DNA from: a virus
Length of the DNA: 64,000 nt
Direction: 5' to 3' (one strand)
UHGV virus genome: UHGV-1579991
Part shown: positions 12,561 to 62,085 of the stretch, piece by piece
How the letters are laid out: each line of letters starts with the position of its first letter
How positions within the stretch are numbered: the stretch's first letter is position 1
Program-made: the position numbers and the translations under genes
The notes under the pieces: model-generated
What the model was told of the DNA's origin: nothing
Seen by the model: only the letters and a program-made list of their open reading frames with translations
The model's database searches: none

Positions 12561-12610
12561 TTATTGTTATATAGTGATATAATACAACAAAAATCTCAAA
12601 TTTGCACACT
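12561..12610 (-). promoter_or_regulatory. Promoter-like conserved motif (GTGCAAA box ... TTGTTGTATTATAT -10-like)
   Basis: Minus-strand reading GTGTGCAAATTTGAGATTTTTGTTGTATTATATCACTATATAAC upstream of 12111-12554. Confidence 0.5.
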
Positions 12611-13118
12611 ACGATGGCTTTTTGTCATCAAATTTGAAAATGACTGGCATTGCAGAATCAGGCTTTATGTCGCCTTTGTTAACTGCGTCATTTAAGCATT
12701 CTACAATCTTTTTGCCAAGGTCTTTTACTTCTGCAGGAATTTTCTCGTATGGCACATTTGATGACAGTTGAAGCTCATTTTGCTGATGCTCGTTTTGTTG
12801 AAGCTCTGCTGTTTCAGATAGCTGCTTGTCAATTCGAGTAAACATCAATTCATCACGTGCATCAATAAATTCTTGAATTGCTTGCAGCTGCTCAATGCTG
12901 CATATGACAACACATTGCAATAAGTTTGATGCATCATAGAATGACATGCCAATAATTCGTGTAGTGTCACAATCGAATGCGCAATTGATGTCTTTCAATG
13001 TGTCCATAAATGACATTGATAAGTCTTCAATGCCTGATACATCTGCAATGCTGAACACAAATTGTGTGCTGCCAACGCATTCATGCTCATCTGAAAATAT
13101 GAGCTTATCTACTGTCAT
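12609..13118 (-). CDS. Hypothetical protein, 169 aa
   Basis: ORF. Confidence 0.45.
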   Translation of the reverse strand: MTVDKLIFSDEHECVGSTQFVFSIADVSGIEDLSMSFMDTLKDINCAFDCDTTRIIGMSFYDASNLLQCVVICSIEQLQAIQEFIDARDELMFTRIDKQLSETAELQQNEHQQNELQLSSNVPYEKIPAEVKDLGKKIVECLNDAVNKGDIKPDSAMPVIFKFDDKKPS

Positions 13119-13330
13119 TTCGTAGTTGCTTTTGTGATGATGCCCTTTGCAAGCATCTTTTTGTATGTGTCATAGCCGATAATGTCAATTGTTGTGTCGT
13201 TTACTCGCCGAACAATCAACTCTGCTTTATCTGCAGCAGACATGATGTTATCTGCAGCTTCTTTGTTTGCAGTGATAGCAGACCATTTACCATTACCGAG
13301 CTTAGTTATGTTTGCTTTGATTGATGTCAT
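13115..13330 (-). CDS. Hypothetical protein, 71 aa
   Basis: ORF with 4-nt overlap to neighbours. Confidence 0.35.
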   Translation of the reverse strand: MTSIKANITKLGNGKWSAITANKEAADNIMSAADKAELIVRRVNDTTIDIIGYDTYKKMLAKGIITKATTK

Positions 13331-13335
13331 TGTTG

Positions 13336-14679
13336 TCAGAATTGAAACATGTTATTGATAAATGCGTCGCCAAACTGCGCATCTGCAGCTTTTGACGTTG
13401 TGTCATACGTTGCTGCATTGATGCCAAGTGCAGTTATTGTTGATTGCGCATCTACAAGTTCATACACTTTGCAGCTCGGCTTTGTAATGTCTGTAAACGA
13501 CATTGTGTACATGAAGTTTTCAAAGATATGTCTTGGTACTTCACGTGCATTCAAACATGCAAGTTGTCTATTTTCTGCAAATCGCGCCTTGAGCCATTCA
13601 AAGTCATCTGCAGGTACTGAGTCAACATTCATGAATGTCTTATATGCTGCAGTCAAAAACATTGCAATGACTTCGTCATCATACAAATCTTCACCAAGCA
13701 TATATCGCATGCCAGGTTCCAACTGTTTTGCATTGTTAGTTTCAATACCAAGAGACTTCAATGCATCGTAGATTTGGCCTACAGATAAATGCGACCAATT
13801 GTTGCCACGTTTCTTGAGCTTGCCAAACAATTCTGGGATGTTGTCACCAGCATCACCAAGCACAATCTTGTAAAACAAGAAACTTGGCACATGTTCATGA
13901 ATCTCAGCATCAACATACTCAAGCAATGCTGCATATGGGTTGTCAAGAATACGTGTTTTAACTTGAGCACCAGCAAAGCTGTCGAAGATGCTGCCGCCGA
14001 CATTCTGCGACTTTTCACCAGCAAGTTCTTTGATGTGTTCAAGCACAAACTTGTCGCCCATCAGTACTCGAGACTTCTGCCACCCATTTGCTTTGCAGCC
14101 ATTTTTGATGATTGCATATGCTGAACATGCGCCAGTGTTTGTGTTGACACATACACATTGAGTCAAGTCTTTATCAGTGCCTTGATACAGCACATTGCGG
14201 CCTTTTGATGTTGCATATCTACTAAGCATGAAGATGACATCATCAGCCTCTGCTTCAGAAAGCTTGATGTGACGAATGCCATGTACTTCTTGCATCAACT
14301 TAAGCCATTCAAAATATACACCATAAACTTTGAGCCAGTTGATTGTCTGGTCATACGTTCGAGTGCCTTTGTAACCAGCATCTTCACCTTGTTCAAAGCC
14401 TTCTCTTGTCAAATATTGATGCTTTGAGCGCCACAAATTCGACTTTTTGTCATCGACAGCAATAATGACATCATCAACGACATCTTCAAGTCTACGAAGC
14501 TCATTACAAAGGTCGAGCGTTAACTTGGATATCAAAGACAGTCTTGATGCATTCTCATTCTTTTCGAATGACAAGTCTGTACCTGATTTTGCTAATACTG
14601 GCACTCTGCTCTTAACCCACCAGCTCCCGTCAATTACGTAAATGAACTTGTGATTATGAGTATTGTCAAGCTTTGTCAT
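13336..14679 (-). CDS. 5'-3' exonuclease / flap endonuclease (T4 RNase H-like)
   Basis: FEN-family motifs GTDKDL and KIVLGDAGDNIP. Confidence 0.75.
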   Translation of the reverse strand: MTKLDNTHNHKFIYVIDGSWWVKSRVPVLAKSGTDLSFEKNENASRLSLISKLTLDLCNELRRLEDVVDDVIIAVDDKKSNLWRSKHQYLTREGFEQGEDAGYKGTRTYDQTINWLKVYGVYFEWLKLMQEVHGIRHIKLSEAEADDVIFMLSRYATSKGRNVLYQGTDKDLTQCVCVNTNTGACSAYAIIKNGCKANGWQKSRVLMGDKFVLEHIKELAGEKSQNVGGSIFDSFAGAQVKTRILDNPYAALLEYVDAEIHEHVPSFLFYKIVLGDAGDNIPELFGKLKKRGNNWSHLSVGQIYDALKSLGIETNNAKQLEPGMRYMLGEDLYDDEVIAMFLTAAYKTFMNVDSVPADDFEWLKARFAENRQLACLNAREVPRHIFENFMYTMSFTDITKPSCKVYELVDAQSTITALGINAATYDTTSKAADAQFGDAFINNMFQF

Positions 14680-14928
14680 TGTCTGAATGCTTTTGCAATT
14701 GCTGATGTTGAGAGCATTGGCACACTACCATTTTTGAAGCGAGGCTTTTTGTTTGACAACGACCACTTTTGCTTATGCCACTTTGAACAGCTTGTGCCAC
14801 GATTTGTTACATCTGCGCCGGACCTTGAGCACTTGAGTCGGAAATCTTGTGCAGATGTGCCATGCTTCTTTATTGAATGTTGACAATTATAACAGCATTT
14901 ATCGTGTCGTTCTACTGGATATCTCATG

Positions 14929-15396
14929 TCATTCAATGATAAGTGTATGACCAACTTCTTTCGCAAATGATACAATGCAGCCAAACAATTGCGGGTCGCA
15001 CCAAGGTTTGATGAACTGCTGCCACCAGTGAACATCAGATGACACCATCATTTCTTTGACAAGGTCTTCCTTTTCCCTGTCAAGATATGCAATATCACCC
15101 AACGCAAACATTGACTTCAAGATATTATCATCACTCATGTCAAACTTGCCAAGCCCTTGTTCGTCAACTTTTCGTGCAACTTTGATTGCATCGGGCAGCT
15201 TACATGCGCCATTTGCGCACAAACATGCTGCAAGAATTACAAATGCAGGCTTCTTATCCTGTGCAAGTCTGTATGCCCAATTGCGTGTAGCAGGAAAGTT
15301 TGGCACTCTGATGTCTACACCTTGAGGCAGATTGGATTCTTTAACTGCTTTAAGCTTGGCATCACTGCCAACCATGCCCATCTTTATTTGTGTCAT
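14929..15396 (-). CDS. Hypothetical protein, 155 aa
   Basis: ORF. Confidence 0.4.
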   Translation of the reverse strand: MTQIKMGMVGSDAKLKAVKESNLPQGVDIRVPNFPATRNWAYRLAQDKKPAFVILAACLCANGACKLPDAIKVARKVDEQGLGKFDMSDDNILKSMFALGDIAYLDREKEDLVKEMMVSSDVHWWQQFIKPWCDPQLFGCIVSFAKEVGHTLIIE

Positions 15397-15523: not shown

Positions 15524-15919
15524 TTATCGGTTCTTTGAAAATGAAACTTGCGTTGATTGCTGTGGTCGAACATCAACAAACACTGAATCTACTGCGTCAA
15601 ACTTAAGCGTAGCAAGTGAATCAATTGTTTGCCTTGCTTTTTGCAAATTGCGTGCTTTGATGCCTGATACTGTTGCAGATTTTTCAAGCAGATATGCATC
15701 ACGAGGCGTCCAGTAGCGAGCCTGCCAACGCATATGCATAGAGTCGACAACCAAATTTTCTGCTGCAGCATCAATAATTGCTGCAGTTGATTGCTGAGTT
15801 GCATCAAGTCGTTGCTGCAATACTGCTAATTGCTTTGTGTGCTGCTGTTGATGTTTGAATACTATGCTGATTGCTCCAAATAAGAGAAACCATGCAATAA
15901 AACGCAAAAATGACTTCAT
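15524..15919 (-). CDS. Membrane-anchored protein (N-terminal TM helix, Gln-rich coiled region); spanin-like topology
   Basis: MKSFLRFIAWFLLFGAISIVF then QQQHTKQLAVLQQRLDATQQ. Confidence 0.4.
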   Translation of the reverse strand: MKSFLRFIAWFLLFGAISIVFKHQQQHTKQLAVLQQRLDATQQSTAAIIDAAAENLVVDSMHMRWQARYWTPRDAYLLEKSATVSGIKARNLQKARQTIDSLATLKFDAVDSVFVDVRPQQSTQVSFSKNR

Positions 15920-16890
15920 GATTGCTGCACGAATTTTGAGAGCTCGAATGACAATGCGAGCATTGTTATGAATTGGTCAATTGACTGTTTAGACTCTACA
16001 CTGTATTTGTGAGCTGCAATGACAATGTCTCCAAGTCGTGCAACAAAACCAGGCGTATTCTTTGAGAGCTTTGCATAGCACCAATTTGCAAAGTCAGTTG
16101 AGAGAGCATTGATGACTTCAGTTTCACGACCTTTGTATTGTGACAATGTTTTGTAAAATTCACGCGGGTCTTTGCATGCGACAATGAAGTCATACAGTTC
16201 TTCAAACTTTGCTGACATGCCCTTTGTGACATGCTCAAGCGTTATATGACGCTCACCTTGATTGAAGACAAAGTAGCAAATGTTCAGAATTTTGCGGAAG
16301 TCTGGATAGTTATCTTGAATTAGCTTGATGAGCGCTTCTTTTTCAATGGTGCATTCATTTTCCTTCAAGATATTGTAGACGCGAACCATGCACTTCTTCA
16401 TCAACTGTTCTGCAATATCATCAGAAAAGTCGAATGACAGCATTTTGAGACGAGATTGAGCAATTGATGCATCAATACGGTCTGGATAATTGCAAGTTGC
16501 AATGAAAAACGCAATGCCTGCAAACTCTTCAATGGTGCCTCGCAAAGCCATCTGGCTTTGTGTCGATAGATAATCCATTTCATCAAGCAGCACAACCTTT
16601 ACGCCACTTGACGACAATGACATATGCTGACAGAATTCTGAAATTGTGTTGCGAACTGTGTCAATGCCAGAATTCTTTGAGCAGTTGATTTGCAGAATTG
16701 AACGTCTATCAGTCCACTTCAATGCCAATGCTCTTGCTGCGGTTGTTTTTCCACTTCCTGGTGCTCCTGCGAACAAATAATTTTGCGGCTGACCATTAAA
16801 TGCCGCAGCATAATCATCAGGCACAATTAACTCTTCGACTTTTGTTGGCCTGTAGCGTTCTAACCAAGTTCTATCTTTAAGGGATGCCAT
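15916..16890 (-). CDS. Clamp loader ATPase subunit (T4 gp44 / RFC-like AAA+)
   Basis: Start at MASLKDRTWLERYRP (ATG 16890-16888); RFC box WLERYRP, Walker A GAPGSGKTT, Walker B LLDEMD, sensor QSRL. Confidence 0.8.
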   Translation of the reverse strand: MASLKDRTWLERYRPTKVEELIVPDDYAAAFNGQPQNYLFAGAPGSGKTTAARALALKWTDRRSILQINCSKNSGIDTVRNTISEFCQHMSLSSSGVKVVLLDEMDYLSTQSQMALRGTIEEFAGIAFFIATCNYPDRIDASIAQSRLKMLSFDFSDDIAEQLMKKCMVRVYNILKENECTIEKEALIKLIQDNYPDFRKILNICYFVFNQGERHITLEHVTKGMSAKFEELYDFIVACKDPREFYKTLSQYKGRETEVINALSTDFANWCYAKLSKNTPGFVARLGDIVIAAHKYSVESKQSIDQFITMLALSFELSKFVQQS

Positions 16891-16904
16891 TTGTTGTTTG
16901 TTGA

Positions 16905-16950
16905 TATATGTAAAAATATTGTACAACAATACTGTCATTTTTGCACAGCA
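16905..16950 (-). promoter_or_regulatory. Promoter-like conserved motif containing TTGTACAA
   Basis: Minus-strand GTGCAAAAATGACAGTATTGTTGTACAATATTTTTAC about 35 nt upstream of clamp-loader ATG. Confidence 0.5.
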
Positions 16951-18126
16951 TGGCCGCAATCGTACACAGGCACATAACCAGCGTCAAGCATTTGTTGTTC
17001 ATCTACTTCTGCAGTATGCGCAGCATACAGTCGCTTCTTGTAATTCCACCAATGTTTTCTAATAGTCAATTTGTCATTGCATATGACAGGATTTTTTGAC
17101 AAGTCTGTGCTATCTACACGTTCATTGCATAAATGCTGTCGTATGATTTCTACAACGTCATCAGGGTTATCCCAATCCCATATTGTAATGCATATGTAGC
17201 CTGCTGTAAGTGCTGCTTGAGTTTTTCTAAAATGTCTATCATTAGGAATTGGCAAATTGCGTTTAGATTTGCCAATTGCATATGCAAAGCCAAATGCAGC
17301 ATTATGTGAAAACGATGGGTTGATTTCTATTAGTAGATGCTTATAATGCAAATCATAAGAAAATCTGCCAATATTGACATCATCAAATGTGCAATCAATG
17401 TTAAGTCGTTGCAGCAAAAAATCATGCCACCAACGATTAACCGTTGTAATGGTGCGCCCATTAGCATGCCGACAACGCTCAGTCATAACAAACCAAGGTA
17501 CACCATAGCGTTCAAGATTTGTTTGCATGCGTTTTGCAGTGCCACCATATTCATCACCGTATCGTAATCTGCGTGTATGAACTGCTTTTAATGGGTTGCC
17601 AGCAGAATTGCCATATCGTAGCATCTTTGTTTGCTGCGCTTTAGCAGTAATTACACCATGGTCAGGATAGTGTTCGCGTATTGTTTGCTGCACTTTAGTA
17701 GCATTCCATGTGCGATAGCCGTACTTGTGTAATTTTGTTTGCTGGGCTTTTTGCATGTTGTTATAATATGGGTCGCCATAGCGTTCTTCTTTAATTTTGC
17801 ACATTAACTGTTGGTCGCCAAATGCATTGCCATATTTTGCAAGTTTTGTTGCCTTAAATTTAGTCATGTCGCCAAGCCCATTGCCATATCTTTCTCGTTT
17901 TGTTGCGACACCTTTGTTTGTAAATTCTTTTTAATTGCGCAGTGTTTTCAACACCATATTTACGCAAATTGCTTATACGACTGTTATATGTACGTTTGCA
18001 AATTGTGTATTGTGAGTAGCGTTTATGCTGAGGTCGTTCTTTAGACGCAGTTTGCAATATCACATCTCTTTCCTCTTCAAGTTCTTTTATGCGAGCTTCA
18101 AGAGCTTCTCCAGTTAATGGTTCCAT
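16935..18126 (-). pseudogene. Homing-endonuclease-like gene (family A paralog) split by a frameshift
   Basis: N-terminal ORF 17860-18126 (LTGEALEARIKELEEERD...ISNLRKYGVEN) and C-terminal ORF 16935-17867 (YG repeats, LLIEINPSFSHN, GYICITIWDWD) lie in different frames overlapping by 8 nt; T-run near 17925-17945. Confidence 0.5.
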
Positions 18127-21974: not shown

Positions 21975-22030
21975 CTTTTGTTTGGTCAAAATTATATTGA
22001 ATATGATACAACACTTGTGACATTTTTGCT
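21975..22030 (-). promoter_or_regulatory. Promoter-like motif variant upstream of primase-helicase
   Basis: Minus-strand GCAAAAATGTCACAAGTGTTGTATCATATTCAATATAAT. Confidence 0.4.
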
Positions 22031-22671
22031 TAGAATGCGACACCGACATGTGCGCCAATCATAGCAGCTTTTGAGTCAACTTGCTTCATGCAGCCAGCAT
22101 CAATACCGACACGCCATTGTAAACTACCTTTGCCAAATTGACGAGTGTATGACAGCCAATACATGTCAATTGATTGCTTGTCAAATGTGCCAAATGCATA
22201 ATGAAAGTCTACATTATTTCGTGGCGCATCATGGTCAATGACTTTAATTGTCGTAGTTTGCACTTCACGAATGACTGTGTCTGCTTTGAACATCAAAACG
22301 TCCCAATCACGTTGCTTAATTGCGTTTTGTGTGACATAGTCTTTTATTGCTATTTGCAGTTTGTCTGACTTCAATGTGTCTGCGTACTCATATTGTGCAA
22401 AGTAGTCATTAACATAATGCATAAGCTTTGTTGTGTCAATGTCAACTACAAGAGTCGTGTCACAATACACTGGCACTGGTATTGTCTTGCCAGGTATATG
22501 AACTGTGTCGTGTTTAATGAATGTGTCAACTTTGACAATTGGCTCTGCATTTATAGCATCTTGATATGTTTGCCAGTCTTTTGGGCTGACAAAATGCCAA
22601 TCTTTGAAAATCATGACAGCAGTCAATACAATGACTGCTGTCATGACTATGATTTTGAGTGTCTTCAACAT
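22030..22671 (-). CDS. Signal-peptide protein with C-terminal aromatic beta-strand; possible outer-membrane beta-barrel (Lom/OmpX/Ail-like)
   Basis: N-term MLKTLKIIVMTAVIVLTAVMIF; C-term ...WRVGIDAG...AMIGAHVGVAF ending in Phe. Confidence 0.4.
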   Translation of the reverse strand: MLKTLKIIVMTAVIVLTAVMIFKDWHFVSPKDWQTYQDAINAEPIVKVDTFIKHDTVHIPGKTIPVPVYCDTTLVVDIDTTKLMHYVNDYFAQYEYADTLKSDKLQIAIKDYVTQNAIKQRDWDVLMFKADTVIREVQTTTIKVIDHDAPRNNVDFHYAFGTFDKQSIDMYWLSYTRQFGKGSLQWRVGIDAGCMKQVDSKAAMIGAHVGVAF

Positions 22672-24273: not shown

Positions 24274-24339
24274 ATTGTCGAAATCTTGTTTGTGTTATAT
24301 GTACACAAAACTGCACCAGCAAAATTGCTGGTGCAGTCG

Positions 24340-25989: not shown

Positions 25990-26035
25990 TTCCTATATTA
26001 TTGTACAACGATGTTGTTAGATTTGCATCATTTGA
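25990..26035 (-). promoter_or_regulatory. Promoter-like conserved motif containing TTGTACAA
   Basis: Minus-strand GATGCAAATCTAACAACATCGTTGTACAATAATATAGG, 30 nt before topoisomerase ATG. Confidence 0.5.
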
Positions 26036-28202: not shown

Positions 28203-28250
28203 TATTGATATATGATAATTGTACTACAAAAATCCCAAATTTGCACACTT
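28203..28250 (-). promoter_or_regulatory. Promoter-like conserved motif
   Basis: Minus-strand GTGTGCAAATTTGGGATTTTTGTAGTACAATTATCATATATC. Confidence 0.55.
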
Positions 28251-28291
28251 TGATAATCAAAAGTGCAAACAAAATTCAAAGTTATATTGTA

Positions 28292-28323
28292 CATCATAAA
28301 GTGCAAATTTGCACTTTATGATG
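28292..28323. promoter_or_regulatory. Perfect 32-bp palindrome (putative operator)
   Basis: CATCATAAAGTGCAAATTTGCACTTTATGATG, no spacer, centred on the GTGCAAA/TTTGCAC box. Confidence 0.5.
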
Positions 28324-30446: not shown

Positions 30447-30453
30447 TTAATTG

Positions 30454-30524: not shown

Positions 30525-30568
30525 GTATATAATGTATGCTTGTGTTATTATGTATATTTGTTAGTAAT

Positions 30569-30607
30569 TATATGAATAATATACTACATTTATTTATGAT
30601 TTGCACC
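30569..30607 (-). promoter_or_regulatory. Promoter-like conserved motif upstream of tRNA cluster
   Basis: Minus-strand GGTGCAAATCATAAATAAATGTAGTATATTATTCATATA. Confidence 0.5.
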
Positions 30608-35198: not shown

Positions 35199-35225
35199 GT
35201 CTGTAAATTGAGATGTTTGTATATG

Positions 35226-35259
35226 TATATTGTACAACAAGAATGCAAAACTTGCACTG
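35226..35259 (-). promoter_or_regulatory. Promoter-like conserved motif containing TTGTACAA
   Basis: Minus-strand CAGTGCAAGTTTTGCATTCTTGTTGTACAATATAC. Confidence 0.5.
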
Positions 35260-37680: not shown

Positions 37681-37725
37681 TATTATTTATAGATATATAA
37701 TACTACATACTTGCAGATTTTGCAC
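37681..37725 (-). promoter_or_regulatory. Promoter-like conserved motif
   Basis: Minus-strand AAGTGCAAAATCTGCAAGTATGTAGTATTATATATCTATAAATAATA. Confidence 0.55.
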
Positions 37726-41836: not shown

Positions 41837-41900
41837 ATATCAACTATTTTGATTGTCAATCAATTGATTTGTTTGTTATATGTATGCAACAATGCAAAAT

Positions 41901-45936: not shown

Positions 45937-45973
45937 TGTAACAGTGCATTTAAGTGTTTTAACAGTTTTATGT

Positions 45974-46007
45974 ATAAATTGTACAACAATGGGCAAAATT
46001 TTGCATC
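45974..46007 (-). promoter_or_regulatory. Promoter-like conserved motif containing TTGTACAA upstream of RNR
   Basis: Minus-strand GATGCAAAATTTTGCCCATTGTTGTACAATTTATAC. Confidence 0.5.
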
Positions 46008-46865: not shown

Positions 46866-46910
46866 ATTGATATATAATAATTATACTACAAAGTTGCCAG
46901 ATTTGCACCA
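46866..46910 (-). promoter_or_regulatory. Promoter-like conserved motif
   Basis: Minus-strand GGTGCAAATCTGGCAACTTTGTAGTATAATTATTATATATC. Confidence 0.55.
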
Positions 46911-48579: not shown

Positions 48580-48591
48580 GTGATATGTATT

Positions 48592-51203: not shown

Positions 51204-51224
51204 TGTGTAGTGTTGTTTATATGA

Positions 51225-51258
51225 GAATATTGTACAATATGCATTGCTATTTTGCAAG
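51225..51258 (-). promoter_or_regulatory. Promoter-like conserved motif containing TTGTACAA
   Basis: Minus-strand CTTGCAAAATAGCAATGCATATTGTACAATATTC. Confidence 0.5.
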
Positions 51259-52749: not shown

Positions 52750-53622
52750 TCAAGCTTGACTACTTTTGTTGATTACGAGATACTTGTATCGTTCTTTGAT
52801 TGTGATGTTCTTTGATTTTGCCGCCTCGATTTCTTTGCGTTCCTTGGAGGAATAGTTGAACTTAATGTAGTCGGAGAACAATTCGGGCTTATCTGCTACT
52901 TCATTGTTCTTGACTTCTTTTACAAGAGTTTGCTGAAACTCATTGATTGTAGTGAAACCAAGGAATGACTGGAACTTGTTAAGCGGAAACAGCTTATCTG
53001 TGTTGTCCTCGAATGTCGGGAATTCGTCGGAATACGTAATTTCGATTTGGTCTACGAAATATCTAAGTTTTTCCCAAGGTTCCTTGCCAATGAGGAGAAT
53101 GTTCTGATGGTCAAGTTTTTCCTCGAACATTTCCAGGAGACATTCGTATGATTTTACGAGACGAACTCCAGGATATGTAATTGATGCAATTGAACGAGGT
53201 TTGTGAGTCGTCTTGACTTCTTTATTGTATGTTTCCTCGTCGATGCAATAGATGTATCGCTTGACCTTGTCGTATTCTTTCGGAAGATAGTTGTTGTCAA
53301 GGAATTGCTTGTCAACTACAATGAAACTGAAAGGATAGAGTTCATTGAATCGTTGACGAAGCTGTTCTGTTGCAAGGAAGAAATGCGAGCCATCTTTTGC
53401 TGCAAATTCCATATTTGAATTGCATCCTGCATATGCAATGTATCTGTTTCGCTTCCATTTGAGGAATCGACTTACCAGGTTCTTTTCGAAGATGTCCTTG
53501 TATTTGAAGTAGGTGTCCCAGTACTCCTTAACAATTCCATCTTGCATTTTTCTTGACAATTTTGAATTGTCTACCGGCCTATCAGTAAAAACTGATGGTT
53601 TGTTTGCGTTGTATAATCCCAT
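52750..53622 (-). CDS. Hypothetical Lys/Glu-rich protein with codon usage unlike neighbouring genes; candidate transferase of the sugar module (function unassigned)
   Basis: 290-aa ORF; visibly different codon choice (frequent GAG, AAG, TTC, AGG-containing context) compared with the GCA/CAA-rich flanking genes. Confidence 0.5.
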   Translation of the reverse strand: MGLYNANKPSVFTDRPVDNSKLSRKMQDGIVKEYWDTYFKYKDIFEKNLVSRFLKWKRNRYIAYAGCNSNMEFAAKDGSHFFLATEQLRQRFNELYPFSFIVVDKQFLDNNYLPKEYDKVKRYIYCIDEETYNKEVKTTHKPRSIASITYPGVRLVKSYECLLEMFEEKLDHQNILLIGKEPWEKLRYFVDQIEITYSDEFPTFEDNTDKLFPLNKFQSFLGFTTINEFQQTLVKEVKNNEVADKPELFSDYIKFNYSSKERKEIEAAKSKNITIKERYKYLVINKSSQA

Positions 53623-53643: not shown

Positions 53644-53691
53644 TATTATTTATAGATATATAATACTACGACAATGCAAATTTTGCACTGT
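53644..53691 (-). promoter_or_regulatory. Promoter-like conserved motif
   Basis: Minus-strand CAGTGCAAAATTTGCATTGTCGTAGTATTATATATCTATAAATAAT. Confidence 0.55.
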
Positions 53692-55062: not shown

Positions 55063-55156
55063 AGAATATGTATATGCACGTTATGCACCAGGATGCACAA
55101 ACAAAAACTCACAGTAACTATGTATAGTTACTGTGAGTTATCACAACATGCTTTAA

Positions 55157-56973: not shown

Positions 56974-57014
56974 GTATATGATAATTGTACCACGCATGCA
57001 TCAACTTTGCACAC
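56974..57014 (-). promoter_or_regulatory. Promoter-like conserved motif
   Basis: Minus-strand GTGTGCAAAGTTGATGCATGCGTGGTACAATTATCATAT. Confidence 0.55.
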
Positions 57015-57064: not shown

Positions 57065-57637
57065 TTAAAATTTGGATAGACTCGTAGTATCAAGCGATGC
57101 AATTGAATCAATGCGCAAAGAATCTGCTATAGGTGCGCAATCATCAATTGGGTGACTTGCAGGCTTAACTTTGAGCATATACATTCTGCAATTGCCAATA
57201 TCTATAAGGGAACCAGAACGTGTCATATAATCACAGCCCAAAATGCCAACGACTTCATGACCAAGTGCTTTGCTAAGCTGAACTAAAATAGGTGAAATAT
57301 CATCAATAAACATATCCAACTGTACAGAGCCATTTGCGATAGTAATATCTGCGTCTATTGCATGAGATACTTGAAGAGCCCCTGTAACATATGATAATCG
57401 CTTAACTGAACGCTCTTTGCCAACCATGTCATGAGTAGCAACAAATGTGCTATCAATCAATGACAATGACGCGCCAGTATCAAGCAAAAGCCATGCATCG
57501 ACACCATTGACATTTGCATGCACAAATGGCAGGCTCTTCAAAACAATTGGTGACTGTGATTGCTGCAATGCTTCATTGCACATTGTCAGCGTCATAATCG
57601 CAAGTAGCGATATGAGAAACAATTTGAATGCTTTCAT
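57065..57637 (-). CDS. Retropepsin-like aspartic protease with N-terminal signal peptide
   Basis: MKAFKLFLISLLAIMTLTMC hydrophobic leader; active-site LLLDTGAS; downstream VVGILGCDYM. Confidence 0.55.
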   Translation of the reverse strand: MKAFKLFLISLLAIMTLTMCNEALQQSQSPIVLKSLPFVHANVNGVDAWLLLDTGASLSLIDSTFVATHDMVGKERSVKRLSYVTGALQVSHAIDADITIANGSVQLDMFIDDISPILVQLSKALGHEVVGILGCDYMTRSGSLIDIGNCRMYMLKVKPASHPIDDCAPIADSLRIDSIASLDTTSLSKF

Positions 57638-57651: not shown

Positions 57652-59601
57652 TTAGTCATTTGCTTTAGTTGCTTGCATCAGTTCAGCAAAGCTTACAGTG
57701 TAAGCGTCTTCGCCAACGGTCACGTATGCAGCATTGACATTTGAGTCATTGCCTGTGTATGTAACCAAGGTGCCTGCAGGAATTTCCACACCGTCAATGG
57801 TTCGCATCGAATTGACAAGCTTGTATGTCTTGTTATCTTCGAAGTTCTCATTGACATATGCAGCAGCAATCATTGTTGAACGCTTACGAGATTCATTGAT
57901 GAAACTTGCGCCAACAAGTTCTGACAACTTCTTCTTTGTTACAGCAGAGCATTTGTCATATGCAATGTCAATTGCGAGGTCTACATCACCAAGTTCCTTT
58001 GCAATGAGTTCATCAATCTGAGACAGCTTCTTGTCATCTTTGACAGCGACAAAATTCATTGCAAACTTGCGAGCGTTGTCTGACAATGATTCATCAATGT
58101 TCCACTGTTTCATCAATGTCTGCTTCAGTACCTTGTCAAGTTCCGACCAGTCCTTATCTGCAAGAGTAGTTGCATCAAAGTCTTCATTGCTGAACTGCTT
58201 CAGCACTTTGACTTTGTCATCATGTGACAATGCAGCCCACTTGTTTGCAGCCTCTTCAGCAGATTCAAGCAAAGGCTTGATTGCATCTTTGAGTTCTTGC
58301 GGCCAAGTTTCAGGCGCTTTGAGCAGCATCTCAGATGAGTTGTACTCAAGCATGTCAGTCATGATTGCAAGCTTAACATTGTTAGCTTTCTCCTCGGGTG
58401 ACAGAGCTTTGAACTTTTCAGCCCAGTCTTCAGATTCAGTTACAATTGACACTGGTTTTGCAAAACCAGCAACAAAGACAAGCTTATACATGATATTCGT
58501 CATGAATGAGCAAACTGCATCAATGTCTGACTGTGTTGCTGCAGATTGAGCATCACGAATGTTGAGCAATGCCTGACGAAGAGACATAATGCCTACAACA
58601 GGGTCAGACCATGTCAACACAACAGAGCTGTCAATTGTGATACCCTTGTCGAATCGCATATTTTCTGCAATACGGTCAGCAAGTTCAGGCAGTTCAGTGT
58701 AGTACTGCTCAAGTGCTGCATGTGTAGCAGGAATCGAAACTTTTGCAGCATCAAATGGGTTGTTGATGTGCATAACATGTGCAGTTTGAATTGACTGCAT
58801 CAGCATCGACACTACTGCAGATTCTATTGCAACATCATCTGCAGCAGCTTCATCAAGATTTGCAAGTTTTAGCAATGTCTTTTTGTCTGCATCTGACAAT
58901 CGCAGCCAAATGTATTCCCATTGACTGTTTGCATCATAGCCACGGTCAGTAGCAAACTTGGTGAGTTCTGCAGATTTCTTTGCTGCGTCATCGTCATCAA
59001 GCCAATCCAAGAATGCTTTCAGTTTGTCGTCAAATGCTTCATTAACAAATGACGCCATTGCATTTTGCAGCAAATATTGATGGTCTCGTACTGGCGACTC
59101 AACAATTTCAAAGCCTTCAAGAGACTTTGGCGAGTCAGTTGCTGAACCAGCTTCAAGACACTTCTTTGATGCATTGTCAATGACAAACCACATCTTTTGT
59201 GCTTTGAGTGCAATGTAAGTCTTGTCTTTTGATTGCTGAACAGTCATGTTGTCAAGAGCCAATGCACTGATTGGCAAATTCTTGACTGCTGACTTGTCAA
59301 GTGCTTCATTGACTGCTACATTGTCATCACTCATTAACTGAGTATTTGCAGCAAATGTTGCAGAATCAATGTTAAGCTCTTTGCCATCAGGCATAGAGAA
59401 CTTAACTGCATCTGCAACATCAAGCACTTGTACCATGGTACCTGCTTCGACTTTGTCATCACCAACAGCGAACTCAGTTACAACCTGATATGCCTTGTTA
59501 GCTTCAACAGTTTCAACAGACTCCATAATGAACTTTGCTGTACTGCAAGAGATTTTGTGCTTTTTCATGTTCATGTATGAATTTGAGTGTTTGTTGTTCA
59601 T
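57652..59601 (-). CDS. Hypothetical acidic helical protein, about 649 aa (start uncertain); possible scaffold or virion protein
   Basis: Long ORF located between capsid-gene region and the protease gene. Confidence 0.45.
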   Translation of the reverse strand: MNNKHSNSYMNMKKHKISCSTAKFIMESVETVEANKAYQVVTEFAVGDDKVEAGTMVQVLDVADAVKFSMPDGKELNIDSATFAANTQLMSDDNVAVNEALDKSAVKNLPISALALDNMTVQQSKDKTYIALKAQKMWFVIDNASKKCLEAGSATDSPKSLEGFEIVESPVRDHQYLLQNAMASFVNEAFDDKLKAFLDWLDDDDAAKKSAELTKFATDRGYDANSQWEYIWLRLSDADKKTLLKLANLDEAAADDVAIESAVVSMLMQSIQTAHVMHINNPFDAAKVSIPATHAALEQYYTELPELADRIAENMRFDKGITIDSSVVLTWSDPVVGIMSLRQALLNIRDAQSAATQSDIDAVCSFMTNIMYKLVFVAGFAKPVSIVTESEDWAEKFKALSPEEKANNVKLAIMTDMLEYNSSEMLLKAPETWPQELKDAIKPLLESAEEAANKWAALSHDDKVKVLKQFSNEDFDATTLADKDWSELDKVLKQTLMKQWNIDESLSDNARKFAMNFVAVKDDKKLSQIDELIAKELGDVDLAIDIAYDKCSAVTKKKLSELVGASFINESRKRSTMIAAAYVNENFEDNKTYKLVNSMRTIDGVEIPAGTLVTYTGNDSNVNAAYVTVGEDAYTVSFAELMQATKAND

Positions 59602-59650
59602 ATGATATGATATATATCAAGTGCAGCAATTGAACAGATTGCAAAAACAA

Positions 59651-59674
59651 TGCTCAGACTTTACAGTCTGAGCA
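59651..59674 (-). terminator. Rho-independent terminator
   Basis: tgctcagact-TTAC-agtctgagca followed on minus strand by TTGTTTTTG. Confidence 0.6.
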
Positions 59675-59851
59675 TTGAACGACTAAATTGTACATCTTCC
59701 ACAATGATATAGAATCATTGTTAATATTGTATTGATATTGTACAACATGCATTGCATATTTGCAATGATACAACATGCAAAATGCACTTGCACTTTGATG
59801 CAAAGTACTGCGTACACAACATGCATTGCATATTTGCATTTTGACGCAATG

Positions 59852-60874
59852 TCATTGTTGTTTATGCCAGCCATATGATGCCTGACCAGCATCATACACT
59901 TCTACAAAACCATGGTCGTACATAAAATCTTCATTACGAGTGCCCTTGCCACCATTAGTGCCAAGAATACGGTCTGCACCATGCATAAGTAGCATGTTAT
60001 TTGTGACATGTTGCTTTGTCAGCATATTGAACCAGTGTTTGCTATATGACAAACCAAGACCATCAAAGCCCAGCTTTGTGTACACACCACCGTCAAACTT
60101 GCTTAAATCACAATATGATAACACAGATTCAGGGTCATATGTCTTGATAAAGTGCTTAAAGATTCGTTCAGCACCACCAACAACTTTGGTTGCTGCACAA
60201 AGACGTAGCAATTCATATTGATAGCGCTTATTGTATCGTGGACGACCAAATGTCATAAGTTGATGAATGACATAACCACCAAGCAACTCAAGTGGATGAC
60301 CTTCAATCAACGCAAGATTGATAAAATTGCCTGAGCACTTGCCTTGCAAATGATGTTCAATCAAAAATTGATTTGCAGTATACTTGTCAATTTCAACAAC
60401 TTTAAGCTTGCGAGCATATACAATCTTTGATTTGTCTACGATTTGATGCTTGATGTGATTGATAACTTTCTTGGCGTCATCCCAATCCCACACATGAATA
60501 CAATGAAAGCCTGCAGCTTTTGCAATGTCTGTTTTCTTTGCATGAACATCACAAGGCAAATGTGCATCTTTTGCATCATGCATAAACAAGTGCTCAAATG
60601 AATGCGTACTGTTATGCGAAAATGCAGGATTGATGTTAATGACAATATTGTCATGTCGAAAATCGAAGACTTCATCACCAATGACAAAGTTGCGCTCAAA
60701 ATCTATACCGACATGTTTGAGCAACACTTGATGCCACACGTCTTTATAGGCTGATTCAAGCTTGCTTAGCTCATCACAGTTTGCAATGTTTTTGTAACGT
60801 TGAATAGCAGCATCAAAGTCAAGATTGACTTCAGCGTAGTCTGCATTTTTATCATAGTGAAATTTTGAGCTCAT
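59852..60874 (-). CDS. Homing-endonuclease-like protein with N-terminal PD-(D/E)xK-like domain related to the C-terminal domain of family A
   Basis: Start at MSSKFHYDK (ATG 60874-60872); IVININPAFSHNSTH...GFHCIHVWDWDD. Confidence 0.45.
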   Translation of the reverse strand: MSSKFHYDKNADYAEVNLDFDAAIQRYKNIANCDELSKLESAYKDVWHQVLLKHVGIDFERNFVIGDEVFDFRHDNIVININPAFSHNSTHSFEHLFMHDAKDAHLPCDVHAKKTDIAKAAGFHCIHVWDWDDAKKVINHIKHQIVDKSKIVYARKLKVVEIDKYTANQFLIEHHLQGKCSGNFINLALIEGHPLELLGGYVIHQLMTFGRPRYNKRYQYELLRLCAATKVVGGAERIFKHFIKTYDPESVLSYCDLSKFDGGVYTKLGFDGLGLSYSKHWFNMLTKQHVTNNMLLMHGADRILGTNGGKGTRNEDFMYDHGFVEVYDAGQASYGWHKQQ

Positions 60875-60890
60875 GCGTATAATTTTGTGT

Positions 60891-60935
60891 ATATAATTAT
60901 TGTACAACATGCAAATGCACATTGCATTTGATACA
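60891..60935 (-). promoter_or_regulatory. Promoter/operator element shared by homing-endonuclease genes
   Basis: Minus-strand GCAATGTGCATTTGCATGTTGTACAATAATTATATAC; near-identical element at 62041-62085. Confidence 0.5.
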
Positions 60936-60965
60936 ACATACAGTATAAGTTTGCTTTTGACAGAC

Positions 60966-62027
60966 TTATTTTGTATTGCTACGCGTCATTGTTAAATGAC
61001 CGCAATCATACACATCAACTTCTGTTTTGCCAAGCATACATGTATGACAATTTATTTTGAAATCTGCTGCAGTGTAATCAGGATAGTTTAGCGGAGATTC
61101 TTTTGACAAATCAATTTCAATTGTGTCAGTAGTTTTAAGTTGTTCAGTGCCTGCAATGATATCTGCAATAAGATTGATAACTTCTTCTTGTGAATCCCAA
61201 TCAAACACAGTTATGCAACGATAGCCTGCATCAAGTGCAAGTTTTGTTTTGTTGTAATGGTATTGAGCACCAATAACATTGTTGTCTTTTGCTCGACCAG
61301 TTAAATATGCAAAACTAACAGTGCAGTTGTGCGTAACTGTTGGACAAATTTCTATAAGTAACTTTGCAGGCTCATACTGCAAATCATATGTTTGATTATT
61401 GATGTTAAACTCGTACTGTGTATCAATTGCCAACTGTCGTAATAACGCATCATGCCACATCATATTACATTTAGAAATTGTTTTGGATGACAATCTGCAT
61501 TGCGGCAATTGACATGGCCAATCTACGCCGTACATTTGTTGTGTTGTTTGACGCATTTTGTTAACATCACCAAAATGATTGCCATATCGATGCTCTTTGG
61601 TTTTAAGCGACTGCTCAATATTGACATTGCCTACACAACCATAACGTTCAAGTTTTGTTGCAGCAGTTTTGCTAACATCACCATGCCCATTGCCAAATTT
61701 GGCGACTTTAGTTGCAAGTATTTTATGACTTGGGCCAAATGCATTGCCATACAATTCTTGTTTAGTCGCAAGCATTTTGTCGATATTACAACCAGCGCCA
61801 TAAGTGTTATGCATAGTTTGCATACGTTGTCGAATAAATTTTGGCACAGATAAAGGACTTTCTACACCATATTTGCGTAAGCAACTGATTTTGCATGCGT
61901 ACTTTTGCTTGATGACAGAATGTGCATTTCGACGTCCTATGTAAGTGTTTTCTGATGTAGCAGCAAGCTCTGCATCTCTAAGAACTTCAAGTGCAGCAAT
62001 TCGTGCTTCAATTTCTTCAGATGTCAT
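60966..62027 (-). CDS. Free-standing homing-endonuclease-like protein (family A paralog)
   Basis: N-term EEIEARIAALEVLRD, YG repeats (ELYGNAFG, ERYGCVGN, HRYGNHFGD), C-term LLIEICPTVTHN...GYRCITVFDWD. Confidence 0.5.
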   Translation of the reverse strand: MTSEEIEARIAALEVLRDAELAATSENTYIGRRNAHSVIKQKYACKISCLRKYGVESPLSVPKFIRQRMQTMHNTYGAGCNIDKMLATKQELYGNAFGPSHKILATKVAKFGNGHGDVSKTAATKLERYGCVGNVNIEQSLKTKEHRYGNHFGDVNKMRQTTQQMYGVDWPCQLPQCRLSSKTISKCNMMWHDALLRQLAIDTQYEFNINNQTYDLQYEPAKLLIEICPTVTHNCTVSFAYLTGRAKDNNVIGAQYHYNKTKLALDAGYRCITVFDWDSQEEVINLIADIIAGTEQLKTTDTIEIDLSKESPLNYPDYTAADFKINCHTCMLGKTEVDVYDCGHLTMTRSNTK

Positions 62028-62040
62028 TTTTTATCATATT

Positions 62041-62085
62041 GATAATTGTACAACATGCAAATGGCGTTTGCATTTGATGCAACAA
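62041..62085 (-). promoter_or_regulatory. Promoter/operator element shared by homing-endonuclease genes
   Basis: Minus-strand GCAAACGCCATTTGCATGTTGTACAATTATCAATATG. Confidence 0.5.

What the first reader, a model, noticed from the sequence alone, without database searches (positions are those of the whole stretch)
12561..62085. Conserved phage promoter-like motif with palindromic TTGTACAA / TTGTAGTA core and upstream GTGCAAA box
About 15 intergenic sites 25-75 nt upstream of minus-strand start codons share, in transcription orientation, (G)TGCAAA(T/A)TTG - N9-12 - TTGT(A/T)GTA(C/T)AAT(T/A)AT-ATATA. Instances by plus coordinate: 12561-12610, 16905-16950, 21975-22030, 25990-26035, 28203-28250, 30569-30607 (tRNA cluster), 35226-35259, 37681-37725, 45974-46007, 46866-46910, 51225-51258, 53644-53691, 56974-57014, 60891-60935, 62041-62085. 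The TACAAT/TATTAT element looks like a -10 hexamer, but the upstream box does not resemble a canonical -35 and recalls activator boxes of T4 middle promoters. The motif also precedes the tRNA operon.
Basis: seen in the sequence. Interest (0 to 1): 0.6.

Follow-up and report, generated by a model that had tools for sequence, protein, structure and literature searches.

The report
Phage middle-gene promoters, sigma-70 style
The repeated motif is a real family of promoters in front of the DNA-replication, nucleotide and tRNA genes of an uncultured human-gut phage. It looks like a classical E. coli or Gram-positive promoter rather than a promoter of the phage's probable Bacteroidota host, so the phage's own sigma factor probably reads it.

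Summary
All 15 reported sites are real, and three more exist (anchors 9437, 28292, 59743). That makes 18 sites, all on the minus strand and all with intergenic cores, typically 24-60 nt before a start codon or the tRNA cluster, and often just after a strong terminator.

The motif is bipartite with fixed spacing: tGCAAa, 12 nt, tGTnG-TAyaAT, then a weaker yATATA. GCAA and G-TA---T are invariant in 18/18 sites. The TAnnnT signature and the 17-bp gap to GTGCAA give sigma-70 geometry. The TTGTACAA palindrome is incidental.

The window is part of a 175-181 kb human-gut phage distantly related to Chryseobacterium phage MA9V, PAU and Lak. None of 59 genes has a Shine-Dalgarno sequence, as in Bacteroidota. 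The motif lacks the Bacteroidota TAnnTTTG/TTTG consensus.

The lineage encodes a sigma-70-family factor with regions 2 and 4, outside the window. A host-type promoter precedes that gene in every relative examined. Structural genes carry a different motif, ATACATA(t/a)A.

Best model: host RNA polymerase makes the phage sigma early, and that sigma then reads these promoters. Promoter function is about 0.9 likely. The sigma assignment is about 0.5 and untested. This is a new member of a known kind, of moderate interest.

The parts
62035..62073 (-). Class I promoter (anchor 62051). It precedes the 353-aa DUF7487 gene 60966-62027 and follows terminator 62144-62114.
60889..60927 (-). Class I promoter (anchor 60905). 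It precedes the HNH/homing-endonuclease-like gene 59852-60874. A degenerate copy lies at 60934.
59727..59765 (-). Class I promoter (anchor 59743, new site). It is followed by an 11-codon ORF and terminator 59677-59648, then gene 57652-59601. Two partial upstream copies lie at 59771 and 59817.
56974..57012 (-). Class I promoter (anchor 56990). It lies directly after terminator 57047-57018 and precedes a 129-aa gene and the dNMP kinase gene.
53650..53688 (-). Class I promoter (anchor 53666). It precedes the 290-aa gene 52750-53622.
51219..51257 (-). Class I promoter (anchor 51235). It precedes the NTP-transferase-like gene 49548-51203.
46870..46908 (-). Class I promoter (anchor 46886). It follows terminator 46994-46965 and precedes gene 46384-46845.
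45968..46006 (-). Class I promoter (anchor 45984). It precedes the ribonucleotide reductase large subunit gene, which carries an intein (41950-45936).
37687..37725 (-). Class I promoter (anchor 37703). It precedes the small genes 37397-37651 and 37139-37387.
35219..35257 (-). Class I promoter (anchor 35235, the best score at 47.6 bits). It precedes the topoisomerase II large subunit gene 33204-35198.
30568..30606 (-). Class I promoter (anchor 30584). It precedes the cluster of 7 tRNA genes at 29343-30524.
28276..28314 (-). Class I promoter (anchor 28292, new site). It is the upstream member of a tandem pair, lies after terminator 28373-28350, and sits within the palindrome AAAGTGCAAATTTGCACTTT.
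28208..28246 (-). Class I promoter (anchor 28224). It precedes genes 27415-28134 and 26206-27174, which share a domain with the C-terminal extension of MA9V-type phage sigma factors.
25990..26028 (-). Class I promoter (anchor 26006). It precedes the topoisomerase II medium subunit gene 24548-25969.
21993..22031 (-). Weaker class I promoter (anchor 22009; AGCAAA and TATCAT). It precedes the 1199-aa gene 18363-21962. A host-like TAATTTTG box lies just downstream.
16908..16946 (-). Class I promoter (anchor 16924). It precedes the clamp loader gene 15916-16890.
12569..12607 (-). Class I promoter (anchor 12585). It precedes genes 12111-12554 and 11870-12109 and the NAD-dependent DNA ligase gene 9973-11877.
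9421..9459 (-). Weaker class I promoter (anchor 9437, new site; AGCAAA and TACTTT). It precedes gene 8390-9397.
41879..41885 (-). Example of the second, different motif (class II, ATACATAtaacaaac). It follows a terminator-like hairpin and lies 49 nt before the 1068-aa gene. Other copies are at 55067-55073, 49448-49454 and 48584-48590. This motif is not part of class I, but it resembles the downstream yATATA box of class I.

Best explanation
The motif is a class of bipartite, sigma-70-family-type promoters ('class I') of a 175-181 kb human-gut phage.

Anatomy, on the transcribed (minus) strand, numbered from the invariant G:
- tGCAAa at -21..-16, acting as the -35 element.
- A fixed spacer.
- tGTnG at -4..0, acting as an upstream extension of the -10.
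- TAyaAT at +1..+6, acting as the -10 hexamer.
- A weaker yATATA around +10..+15, where transcription is predicted to start (about 13 nt below the anchor).

These promoters head the operons for DNA replication, nucleotide metabolism, tRNAs and small unknown genes. They are absent from the structural-gene blocks.

Proposed mechanism:
1. Host RNA polymerase with the host primary sigma transcribes the phage's own sigma-70-family gene from a host-type (Bacteroidota) promoter early in infection.
2. The phage sigma, which has both a region 2 (-10 reader) and a region 4 (-35 reader), replaces the host sigma on the core enzyme and directs it to class I promoters. These are therefore 'middle' promoters.
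3. Structural genes use a third motif, ATACATA(t/a)A.

Shown: the motif, its geometry, its positions and gene classes, its conservation in relatives, its mismatch to the Bacteroidota consensus, and the existence and promoter type of the phage sigma gene.

Inferred: that the sites fire, where they start, that the host is a Bacteroidota, and above all that the phage sigma rather than the host sigma reads them.
For: Real and directional: 18 sites, all on the gene strand, with statistics.

Position:
- All cores are intergenic in a window that is 92.5% coding, typically 24-60 nt from the start codon.
- Strong intrinsic terminators lie directly upstream of four sites: 62144-62114, 57047-57018, 46994-46965 and 28373-28350.

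Sigma-70 signature:
- T+1, A+2 and T+6 are 18/18, and the fixed 17-bp gap to GTGCAA holds throughout.
- Strain variants change the inner -10 bases but keep TAnnnT. The tRNA promoter reads TATATT, TATTAT or TAATAT in different strains.

Conservation:
- The motif is present in relatives at 59-75% protein identity (L003, L025, L126).
- It is present in a metagenomic relative whose sigma is 62% identical (L370).

Class specificity:
- No site occurs in 10 kb of structural genes on either side of the window.
- Further sites outside the window precede a gp32-like SSB plus helicase, thymidylate synthase and clusters of small ORFs.
- At least 24-26 distinct sites per genome are found in the DNA held.

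Not host-type:
- 0/59 genes have a Shine-Dalgarno sequence, and A is enriched at -3 and at -12..-14, as in Bacteroidota (PMC6847099).
- The Bacteroidota consensus has T-12, A-11, T-8, T-7, T-6 and G-5 nearly invariant (PMC6847099). Class I has A at -8 in 16/18 sites, G at -5 in 0/18, and nothing conserved where the -33 TTTG would lie.
- The syntenic relative MA9V-2 has TTTTCATATGTC-N12-TATATTTG promoters at the equivalent genes.

Phage sigma:
- L137:17334-18230 (298 aa) hits the MA9V sigma profile at E=1.4e-40.
- It scores 33.2 bits on Pfam Sigma70_r2 and 26.2 bits on Sigma70_r4, both above their cut-offs. It hits PHROG 351, and its best PDB matches are SigA and RpoS.
- A host-type promoter lies upstream of the gene: TTTCAyATGTGACAAAAAATGATTAAATTTA. 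The same holds in MA9V-1 and in orthologs at 43-62% identity.

Class I resembles canonical sigma-A promoters. The same pattern in bacterial genomes, mostly Bacillota, shows TGTGGTATAAT followed by Shine-Dalgarno leaders.
Against: - No transcript data exist. The start sites and the timing are inferred.
- The host is not identified. One genome-collection search with a phage protein found nothing.
- The sigma gene lies outside the window. It was seen in IMG/VR contigs 92-96% identical to the window in DNA, not in the window's own contig.
- The orthologous sigma in MA9V has an almost identical region 2.3-2.4 (KFS-YAY-WIKK-VLD), yet MA9V has no class I motif. The motif shared by both phages is the ATACATA class. 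By conservation, the sigma could therefore be the late factor, as gp55 is in T4, leaving class I to the host sigma or to another factor.
- The residues aligned with E. coli sigma-70 Q437 and T440 are not conserved (alignment; the residue roles are own knowledge).
- The -35 box matches TTGACA at only 3 of 6 positions.
Confidence: 0.5

Rival explanations
1. Class I sites are early promoters read directly by the host's primary sigma factor. The extended conservation reflects selection for strength and spread by duplication, as with T4 or T5 early promoters. No phage factor is needed.
For: - TAnnnT and -35/-10 geometry suit any sigma-70-family holoenzyme.
- Near-identical motifs occur in unrelated phages and in many bacterial genomes, where they look like ordinary sigma-A promoters.
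- If class I is aligned on its invariant G with the last base of the host -7 box, T-7 and G-5 are shared. The upstream box GTGCAAA then falls at the same coordinates as the GTGACAA or GTCAAAA box of host-type promoters.
- The host is unidentified and might have a canonical sigma.
Against: - If the host is a Bacteroidota, class I lacks three of the six nearly invariant -7 positions and has no -33 element (PMC6847099). E. coli-type promoters are reported not to work in that phylum (PMC6847099).
- The same phage keeps a proper host-type promoter at its sigma gene, so two clearly different designs coexist in one genome.
- The relatives MA9V-1 and MA9V-2 use host-type promoters at the syntenic genes.
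Confidence: 0.22
2. Class I sites are middle promoters of the T4 kind. The host sigma reads the -10, while a phage activator bound to GTGCAAA replaces -35 recognition (sigma appropriation), and the phage sigma serves only the late ATACATA class.
For: - The -10 is retained while the -35 region carries a phage-specific box, often within a dyad such as TGCAAATTTGCA at 28292.
- The phage sigma's region 2 is conserved with MA9V, as is the ATACATA motif.
- Two proteins right behind the tandem promoters (27415-28134 and 26206-27174) share a domain with the C-terminal extension of MA9V-type sigmas.
Against: - No MotA or AsiA family was hit in any protein scanned.
- The box sits at -35 distance, not at the shorter MotA-box distance (own knowledge).
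- The dyad is not conserved: only the GCAA half is invariant.
- The model of the shared domain has no informative structural match.
- The host sigma would still have to accept A at -8 and the absence of G at -5.
Confidence: 0.15
3. The sites are operators for a phage repressor or other DNA-binding protein, or RNA-level or leader elements or dispersed repeats, and are not themselves promoters.
For: Partial palindromes occur (TTGTACAA, TGCAAAnTTTGCA). Promoter-like modules are duplicated in tandem at 59743-59817 and 60905-60934.
Against: - Conservation is asymmetric.
- The strand bias is strict, the sites lie between terminators and start codons, and TAnnnT is kept with fixed spacing.
- The site before the tRNA genes excludes a translation signal.
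Confidence: 0.05

Closest known systems
Canonical sigma-70 / sigma-A promoters (TTGACA-N17-TATAAT; Gram-positive 'TRTGn' extended -10)
   Same: - Bipartite design with a 17-bp spacer and the T-12/A-11/T-7 signature.
- T and G at -17/-16 and T at -15, as in TRTG.
- The same 29-nt pattern in bacterial genomes marks ordinary-looking promoters with TATAAT in 84/121 cases and G at the variable position in 67/121.
   Different: - The -35 hexamer is GTGCAA (3/6 matches, with A and C swapped).
- The classical TG at -15/-14 is replaced by T(T/A), with an invariant G at -13.
- The context is a phage whose genes lack Shine-Dalgarno sequences, which probably infects a phylum that does not use this promoter type.
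Bacteroidota primary-sigma (sigma-ABfr) promoters, -33 TTTG / -7 TAnnTTTG (PMC6847099)
   Same: Overall geometry, and T-12, A-11 and T-7. This is the promoter type found in front of the phage's own sigma gene and in front of the syntenic genes of phage MA9V-2.
   Different: Class I has A at -8 in 16/18 sites, no G at -5 (0/18), T at -6 in only 5/18, and no conserved -33 TTTG.
Phage-sigma-dependent middle promoters, e.g. Bacillus phage SPO1 gp28 (own knowledge)
   Same: A phage-encoded sigma-70-family protein, a phage promoter class unlike the host consensus heading replication-type genes, and a sigma gene placed behind a host-type promoter.
   Different: Nothing has been tested biochemically here. 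The promoter sequence is unrelated to SPO1's. The phage belongs to the T4 superfamily, not to SPO1-like phages, and the host phylum is different.
T4 middle promoters (MotA box plus -10, AsiA/MotA sigma appropriation; own knowledge)
   Same: A -10 element combined with a non-canonical upstream box, in front of replication and nucleotide-metabolism genes and tRNAs of a T4-superfamily phage.
   Different: The box sequence and distance differ. No MotA or AsiA homolog was found in the roughly half of the genome examined.
T4 late promoter TATAAATA read by gp55 (own knowledge); relevant to the second motif only
   Same: ATACATA(t/a)A is a single short A/T-rich element without a -35. It lies in front of structural genes, often right after terminators, and is shared with MA9V-2.
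   Different: The sequence is different. No gp55-like minimal sigma was identified. Two class I sites (37703, 53666) carry an exact TATAAATA in their downstream box, which may be coincidence.

Membership tests
Sigma-70-family bipartite promoter | -10 hexamer with conserved T-12, A-11 and T-7 | tested here: met
   T+1, A+2 and T+6 are 18/18 in the window. They are kept in 36 of 38 distinct variants when relatives are included.
Sigma-70-family bipartite promoter | Second conserved element 16-18 bp upstream of the -10 | tested here: met
   GCAA at -20..-17 is 18/18. The spacing is fixed, giving 17 bp for the hexamer GTGCAA. The sequence matches TTGACA at only 3/6 positions.
Sigma-70-family bipartite promoter | Located upstream of and co-oriented with genes, outside coding sequence | tested here: met
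   18/18 sites are on the gene strand with intergenic cores in a 92.5% coding window.
Sigma-70-family bipartite promoter | Transcription starts 5-9 nt downstream of the -10 | not testable with these tools
   No transcript data are available. The start is predicted at about anchor minus 13 in plus-strand coordinates.
Bacteroidota sigma-ABfr (host) promoter | -7 element TAHHTTTG with T-8, T-6 and G-5 nearly invariant (PMC6847099) | tested here: not met
   A at -8 in 16/18 sites, T at -6 in 5/18, and G at -5 in 0/18.
Bacteroidota sigma-ABfr (host) promoter | -33 TTTG about 19 bp upstream of TA | tested here: not met
   GTGC occupies those positions. There is no conservation upstream of -22.
T4-type MotA-dependent middle promoter | MotA box (a/t)(a/t)(a/t)TGCTTtA centred near -30, 11-13 bp from the -10 (own knowledge) | tested here: not met
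   The box is GTGCAAA and lies 16 nt from TAyaAT.
T4-type MotA-dependent middle promoter | Phage encodes MotA and AsiA | tested here: inconclusive
   No such PHROG was hit in about 65 proteins, but only about half of the genome was available.
Phage-sigma-dependent promoter class (SPO1 gp28 type) | Phage encodes a sigma-70-family factor with DNA-reading regions | tested here: met
   L137:17334-18230 has Sigma70_r2 and Sigma70_r4 above the Pfam cut-offs, hits PHROG 351, and matches SigA and RpoS structures. The gene is outside the window and was seen in 92-96% identical contigs.
Phage-sigma-dependent promoter class (SPO1 gp28 type) | The sigma gene itself is expressed by unmodified host polymerase | tested here: met
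   This is met by sequence only. A host-type promoter lies upstream of the sigma gene in this phage, in MA9V-1 and in three orthologous lineages.
Phage-sigma-dependent promoter class (SPO1 gp28 type) | The phage sigma, not the host sigma, initiates at these sites | not testable with these tools
   This needs in vitro transcription or infection transcriptomics with a sigma mutant.

The most novel reading that the evidence does not exclude
A gut Bacteroidota phage carries an orthogonal transcription module. The module is a conventional sigma-70-like factor plus about 30 or more conventional-looking (-35/-10) promoters that the host's divergent sigma-ABfr cannot read. Its replication and tRNA genes are therefore silent until the phage sigma appears, and host promoters are simultaneously out-competed. 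In the relative MA9V the same genes still use host-type promoters, so the switch would be a recent rewiring of a whole regulon. The two proteins behind the tandem promoters at 28224/28292 share a domain with the C-terminal extension of MA9V-type sigmas and might be detached parts of that machinery.
Probability: 0.35. Interest if true: 0.65.

Novelty: new member of a known kind. Interest (0 to 1): 0.5.

Why it matters
Nothing was found in the searchable literature on promoters or the temporal programme of the PAU / MA9V / Lak-related phages of Bacteroidota.

This finding gives a testable three-class map for one abundant human-gut lineage:
- a host-type promoter at the sigma gene,
- class I at replication, nucleotide-metabolism and tRNA genes,
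- ATACATA at structural genes.

If the phage sigma reads class I, the pair would be a ready-made orthogonal expression switch for Bacteroides-type hosts, where E. coli promoters do not work. It would also be an example of a phage rewiring a regulon from host-sigma to own-sigma control. If the host sigma reads class I, it would widen the known specificity of sigma-ABfr.

Tried and rejected
- Canonical sigma-70 scan. Promoter-like hits were only slightly above, or within, shuffle expectation (78, 60 and 66 found against about 55 expected). The scan picks up only two class I sites, at 9/12 matches.
- Palindrome or operator reading. Rejected because conservation is asymmetric.
- Rfam. It finds only the seven tRNAs. 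ARAGORN's 'tmRNA*' at 28909-29351 is unsupported.
- Megablast of the window and of two unrelated motif-bearing contigs against GenBank phages found no match.
- Searching for the sigma. The MA9V sigma alone, or its profile, in the protein database and in IMG/VR did not reach this phage. It was found only by walking along synteny.
- Host identification with the ligase in bacterial genomes found nothing.
- Reading MA9V host-type promoters in a second, sigma-70-like register (GTCAAA-N17-TATTAT). Only 4 of 10 sites have T at the sixth position, and 6 of 37 sites in other phages have TAnnnT, so this was not pursued.
- No sigma gene was found in the fragments held of the unrelated phages that carry a similar motif.

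Full report
**What the window is.** The 64-kb window has 40% G+C, and nearly all genes from 6.8 kb onward lie on the minus strand.

It encodes T4-superfamily replication and nucleotide-metabolism functions:
- ribonucleotide reductase with an intein,
- both topoisomerase II subunits,
- clamp loader and 5'-3' exonuclease,
- NAD-dependent ligase,
- DHFR, dNMP kinase and polynucleotide kinase,
- a terminase large subunit on the plus strand,
- the start-truncated major capsid gene at the right-hand end.

Seven tRNA genes lie at 29343-30524.

There is no close relative among GenBank phages. The capsid and topoisomerase proteins are 35-39% identical to those of Chryseobacterium phages MA9V-1/2, 'Sphingomonas' phage PAU and Tenacibaculum phages pT24/PTm1. 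They are more distantly related to those of Prevotella Lak phages. Iyer et al. (PMC7824862) place PTm1 and Lak-B8 in jumbo-phage group 2.2. Phages of that group have no RNA polymerase of their own and carry phage sigma factors.

The exact topoisomerase protein is encoded on a 181,037-bp ENA contig and on contigs from a human-gut cohort. IMG/VR holds two contigs of 174.6 and 175.6 kb that are 92-96% identical in DNA, and a more distant relative at 59-75% protein identity.

None of 59 start codons has a Shine-Dalgarno core. A is enriched at -3 and at -12..-14. That is the pattern described for Bacteroidetes (PMC6847099). The host itself was not identified.

All 15 sites are as described.

- A weight matrix finds 18 sites of 25.6-47.6 bits, all on the minus strand. 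Nothing else exceeds 10.2 bits.
- Leave-one-out scoring and third-order Markov simulations exclude circularity and composition effects. This matters because TGCA is five-fold over-represented in this genome.
- Exact and mismatch-tolerant pattern counts far exceed dinucleotide-shuffle expectations.
- All cores lie in the 7.5% of the window that is non-coding. Fifteen sit 24-60 nt before a start codon or the first tRNA.

**Anatomy.** The motif is aligned on the invariant G of GTA.

| Element | Position | Conservation |
|---|---|---|
| tGCAAa | -21..-16 | GCAA 18/18 |
| tGTnG | -4..0 | G-3 and T-2 17/18, G0 18/18 |
| TAyaAT | +1..+6 | T, A and final T 18/18 |
| yATATA | about +10..+15 | weaker |

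- Nothing is conserved upstream of -22.
- The spacing between the blocks never varies.
- With TAyaAT as the -10, the hexamer GTGCAA lies 17 bp upstream.
- Strain-level variants of the same promoter change the inner -10 bases but keep TAnnnT. This is the behaviour expected of a sigma-70-family -10 element.

**Context supports promoter function.**
- Strong intrinsic terminators (10-14-bp stems followed by T runs) lie directly upstream of the sites at 62051, 56990, 46886 and 28292/28224.
- The downstream genes are replication, nucleotide-metabolism, tRNA and small unknown genes.
- Sites recovered outside the window precede a gp32-like SSB with a helicase, thymidylate synthase and clusters of small ORFs.
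- Ten kb of structural genes on each side of the window have no site.
- Structural genes and several window genes (starts at 55062, 48579, 41836 and 24273) carry ATACATA(t/a)A or ACATATA 11-70 nt before the start, often right after a terminator. This motif is strand-biased 13:3 and is 40-fold denser in intergenic DNA. It also occurs in MA9V-2.
- The weak downstream box of class I resembles this second motif. At 35235 and 45984 the two overlap completely. It remains open whether that reflects a shared initiation region or overlapping promoters.

**It is not the expected host promoter.** Bacteroidetes use -33 TTTG and -7 TAnnTTTG, with T-12, A-11, T-8, T-7, T-6 and G-5 nearly invariant. E. coli-type promoters are reported not to function there (PMC6847099).

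- Class I has A at -8 (16/18), G at -5 in 0/18, and no -33 element.
- TTG-N17-21-TAnnTTTG occurs only 12 times over both strands of the window, nearly all inside genes; a shuffle expectation was not computed. A few isolated TAHHTTTG boxes do occur between genes.
- The syntenic relative MA9V-2 carries TTTTCATATGTC-N12-TATATTTG in front of its topoisomerase, helicase and neighbouring genes.
- That host-type design is widespread in low-GC IMG/VR phages.

**The phage has its own sigma factor.** MA9V-1 ORF23 is annotated as a sigma factor (PMC10537231), and Pfam confirms region 2.

- Following synteny past the terminase and the large structural genes led to a 298-aa ORF, L137:17334-18230. It matches the MA9V sigma profile at E=1.4e-40.
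- It scores above the Pfam cut-offs for both Sigma70_r2 and Sigma70_r4. It hits PHROG 351, and its best solved relatives are SigA and RpoS.
- Its upstream region is a host-type promoter, TTTCAyATGTGACAAAAAATGATTAAATTTA. This is the only exact match to that pattern in each genome.
- MA9V-1's sigma gene has the same kind of promoter. So do orthologs at 43-62% identity from metagenomes.
- The 62% ortholog's locus also contains a class I site.

**Class I looks like a conventional promoter.** Scanning IMG/VR and bacterial genomes with GTGCAAA-N11-TGTNGTAYWAT gave two kinds of hit besides this lineage.

- Several unrelated phages with Shine-Dalgarno leaders carry 2-4 copies of (C)GTGCAAA-N11-TGTGGTATAAT.
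- Many bacterial sites, mostly Bacillota, have G at the free position in 67/121 cases and TATAAT in 84/121, followed by ordinary Shine-Dalgarno leaders.

This is the Gram-positive TRTGn-TATAAT design with a TTGACA-like -35. Class I is therefore best described as a conventional sigma-70/sigma-A-type promoter with its own -35 variant (GTGCAA) and an invariant G at -13. It sits in a phage whose likely host does not use such promoters.

**Mechanism and its weak point.** The simplest reading is a cascade.

1. Host holoenzyme transcribes the phage sigma gene from a host-type promoter.
2. The two-domain phage sigma directs core polymerase to the bipartite class I promoters.
3. Structural genes use ATACATA.

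I put about 0.9 on class I being promoters and about 0.5 on the phage sigma being their reader.

The main counter-argument is evolutionary. The MA9V sigma and this sigma share an almost identical region 2.3-2.4, but MA9V lacks class I. The motif the two phages share is ATACATA. The sigma could therefore be the late factor, as gp55 is in T4. Class I would then be read by the host sigma (rival 1) or by the host sigma plus an activator (rival 2).

One point favours the main model. Only this lineage's sigma has a Pfam-detectable region 4, and only it lacks the roughly 150-aa C-terminal extension of MA9V-type sigmas. This fits a lineage-specific gain of -35-dependent promoters.

That extension is homologous to the C-terminal half of window protein 27415-28134. 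The link runs through that protein's ortholog in L003, which matches the extension at E=4.5e-8. The extension is also weakly similar to window protein 26206-27174. Both genes sit directly behind the tandem class I promoters at 28292 and 28224. The domain has no informative structural match, and the family is tiny. This is a fusion-based hint of a link to the transcription machinery and nothing more.

**Verdict.** The interpretation as a phage promoter is supported. The MotA-box analogy and the palindrome are not.

The motif is a new member of a known kind: phage class-specific promoters, probably dependent on a phage sigma. No description of promoters in this phage group was found.

Interest is moderate. 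The motif gives a concrete, testable temporal programme for an abundant gut phage lineage. It may also provide an orthogonal sigma/promoter pair for Bacteroidota.

Noticed in passing
whole window; also L001-L003, L124-L126, L370-L373: The oligonucleotide composition is extreme. TGCA occurs 1149 times against 232 expected (16-21 per kb), while GATC occurs 3 times and CTAG twice against 232 expected each. TA, CC and GG are depleted. Much of the TGCA excess is xxT|GCA (Ala GCA is 68% of Ala codons), but non-coding DNA is equally rich. The signature is shared by all relatives, including those whose sigma is only 43-62% identical.
   Followed up: partly
55067-55073, 49448-49454, 48584-48590, 41879-41885, about 24290-24300 (minus strand); L124 3988-9821; L131; L137: A second promoter-like motif, ATACATA(t/a)A(c)AAA, lies in front of structural and some other genes, often right after terminators. 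Its strand bias is 13:3 and it is 40-fold denser in intergenic DNA. It is also present in Chryseobacterium phage MA9V-2 and is a likely late promoter.
   Followed up: partly
59648-59765 (minus strand): The class I promoter at 59743 is followed by an 11-codon ORF (ATGATTCTATATCATTGTGGAAGATGTACAATTTAG) and a 13-bp-stem terminator, all before the 649-aa gene 57652-59601. This could be a leader or attenuator, or a small RNA.
   Followed up: no
59765-59840, 60928-60955; L002 19299/19332; L124 21434/21462: Promoter modules (TGCAAAtATGCAATGCATGTTGTAy) are duplicated in tandem, and the copy number differs between near-identical strains. This suggests promoter turnover by local duplication.
   Followed up: no
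27415-28134 and 26206-27174 (minus strand): Two proteins of unknown function share a domain with the roughly 150-aa C-terminal extension of MA9V-type phage sigma factors. This phage's own sigma lacks that extension. The AlphaFold model is confident (pLDDT 85) but has no informative structural match, and only 8 cluster representatives were found in 1.8 billion proteins.
   Followed up: yes
L137:17334-18230 (outside the window, about 25 kb beyond window position 1): The phage's sigma-70-family gene (regions 2 and 4) lies behind a Bacteroidota-type promoter, TTTCAyATGTGACAAAAAATGATTAAATTTA. That promoter is almost identical to promoters of Chryseobacterium phage MA9V-2, although the proteins of the two phages are only 30-40% identical.
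   Followed up: yes
L224, L008, L189/L199/L216, L193/L215/L239, L005/L186, L204, L209 (IMG/VR contigs unrelated to the window): Unrelated uncultured phages (39-55% GC, Shine-Dalgarno leaders, MoxR-like ATPase and VWA genes) carry 2-4 copies of (C)GTGCAAA-N11-TGTGGTATAAT. It is unresolved whether this reflects their hosts' sigma-A consensus or a shared phage factor.
   Followed up: partly
9905-9975 (minus strand, upstream of gene 9501-9869): A perfect 33-nt direct repeat occurs twice (ATCAAAACAATTTTATATTGTTTTGCATTTTGC), each copy with an internal inverted repeat. It lies between the ligase gene and a Cys-rich 122-aa gene that has no class I or class II motif.
   Followed up: no
60966-62027, 59852-60874, 16935-17867, 3445-4719 (minus strand): Four paralogous genes end in a shared ...V(Y)D(C/A)G(H/Q) tail. 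Three of them hit DUF7487, and 59852-60874 hits homing/HNH endonuclease PHROGs instead. A fifth paralog lies outside the window (L230/L197). Together with the HNH-bearing intein in the reductase gene, this points to many selfish endonuclease genes.
   Followed up: no
57065-57637 (minus strand): A predicted lipoprotein (signal peptide ending in Cys) carries a retropepsin-like aspartyl protease domain with an LLDTGAS motif. This is unusual cargo for a phage.
   Followed up: no
28909-29351 (minus strand): ARAGORN reports a permuted 'tmRNA*' overlapping tRNA-Gly, but Rfam finds no tmRNA there. It is probably a false positive.
   Followed up: partly
31000-31007 and 28885-28892 (minus strand): Isolated host-type -7 boxes (TATATTTG) lie between genes. 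One is 7 nt before the start codon of 30630-30992, and the other follows terminator 28947-28918 next to an ACATATACAAAC element. A few host-sigma promoters may therefore be interspersed among the class I sites.
   Followed up: no
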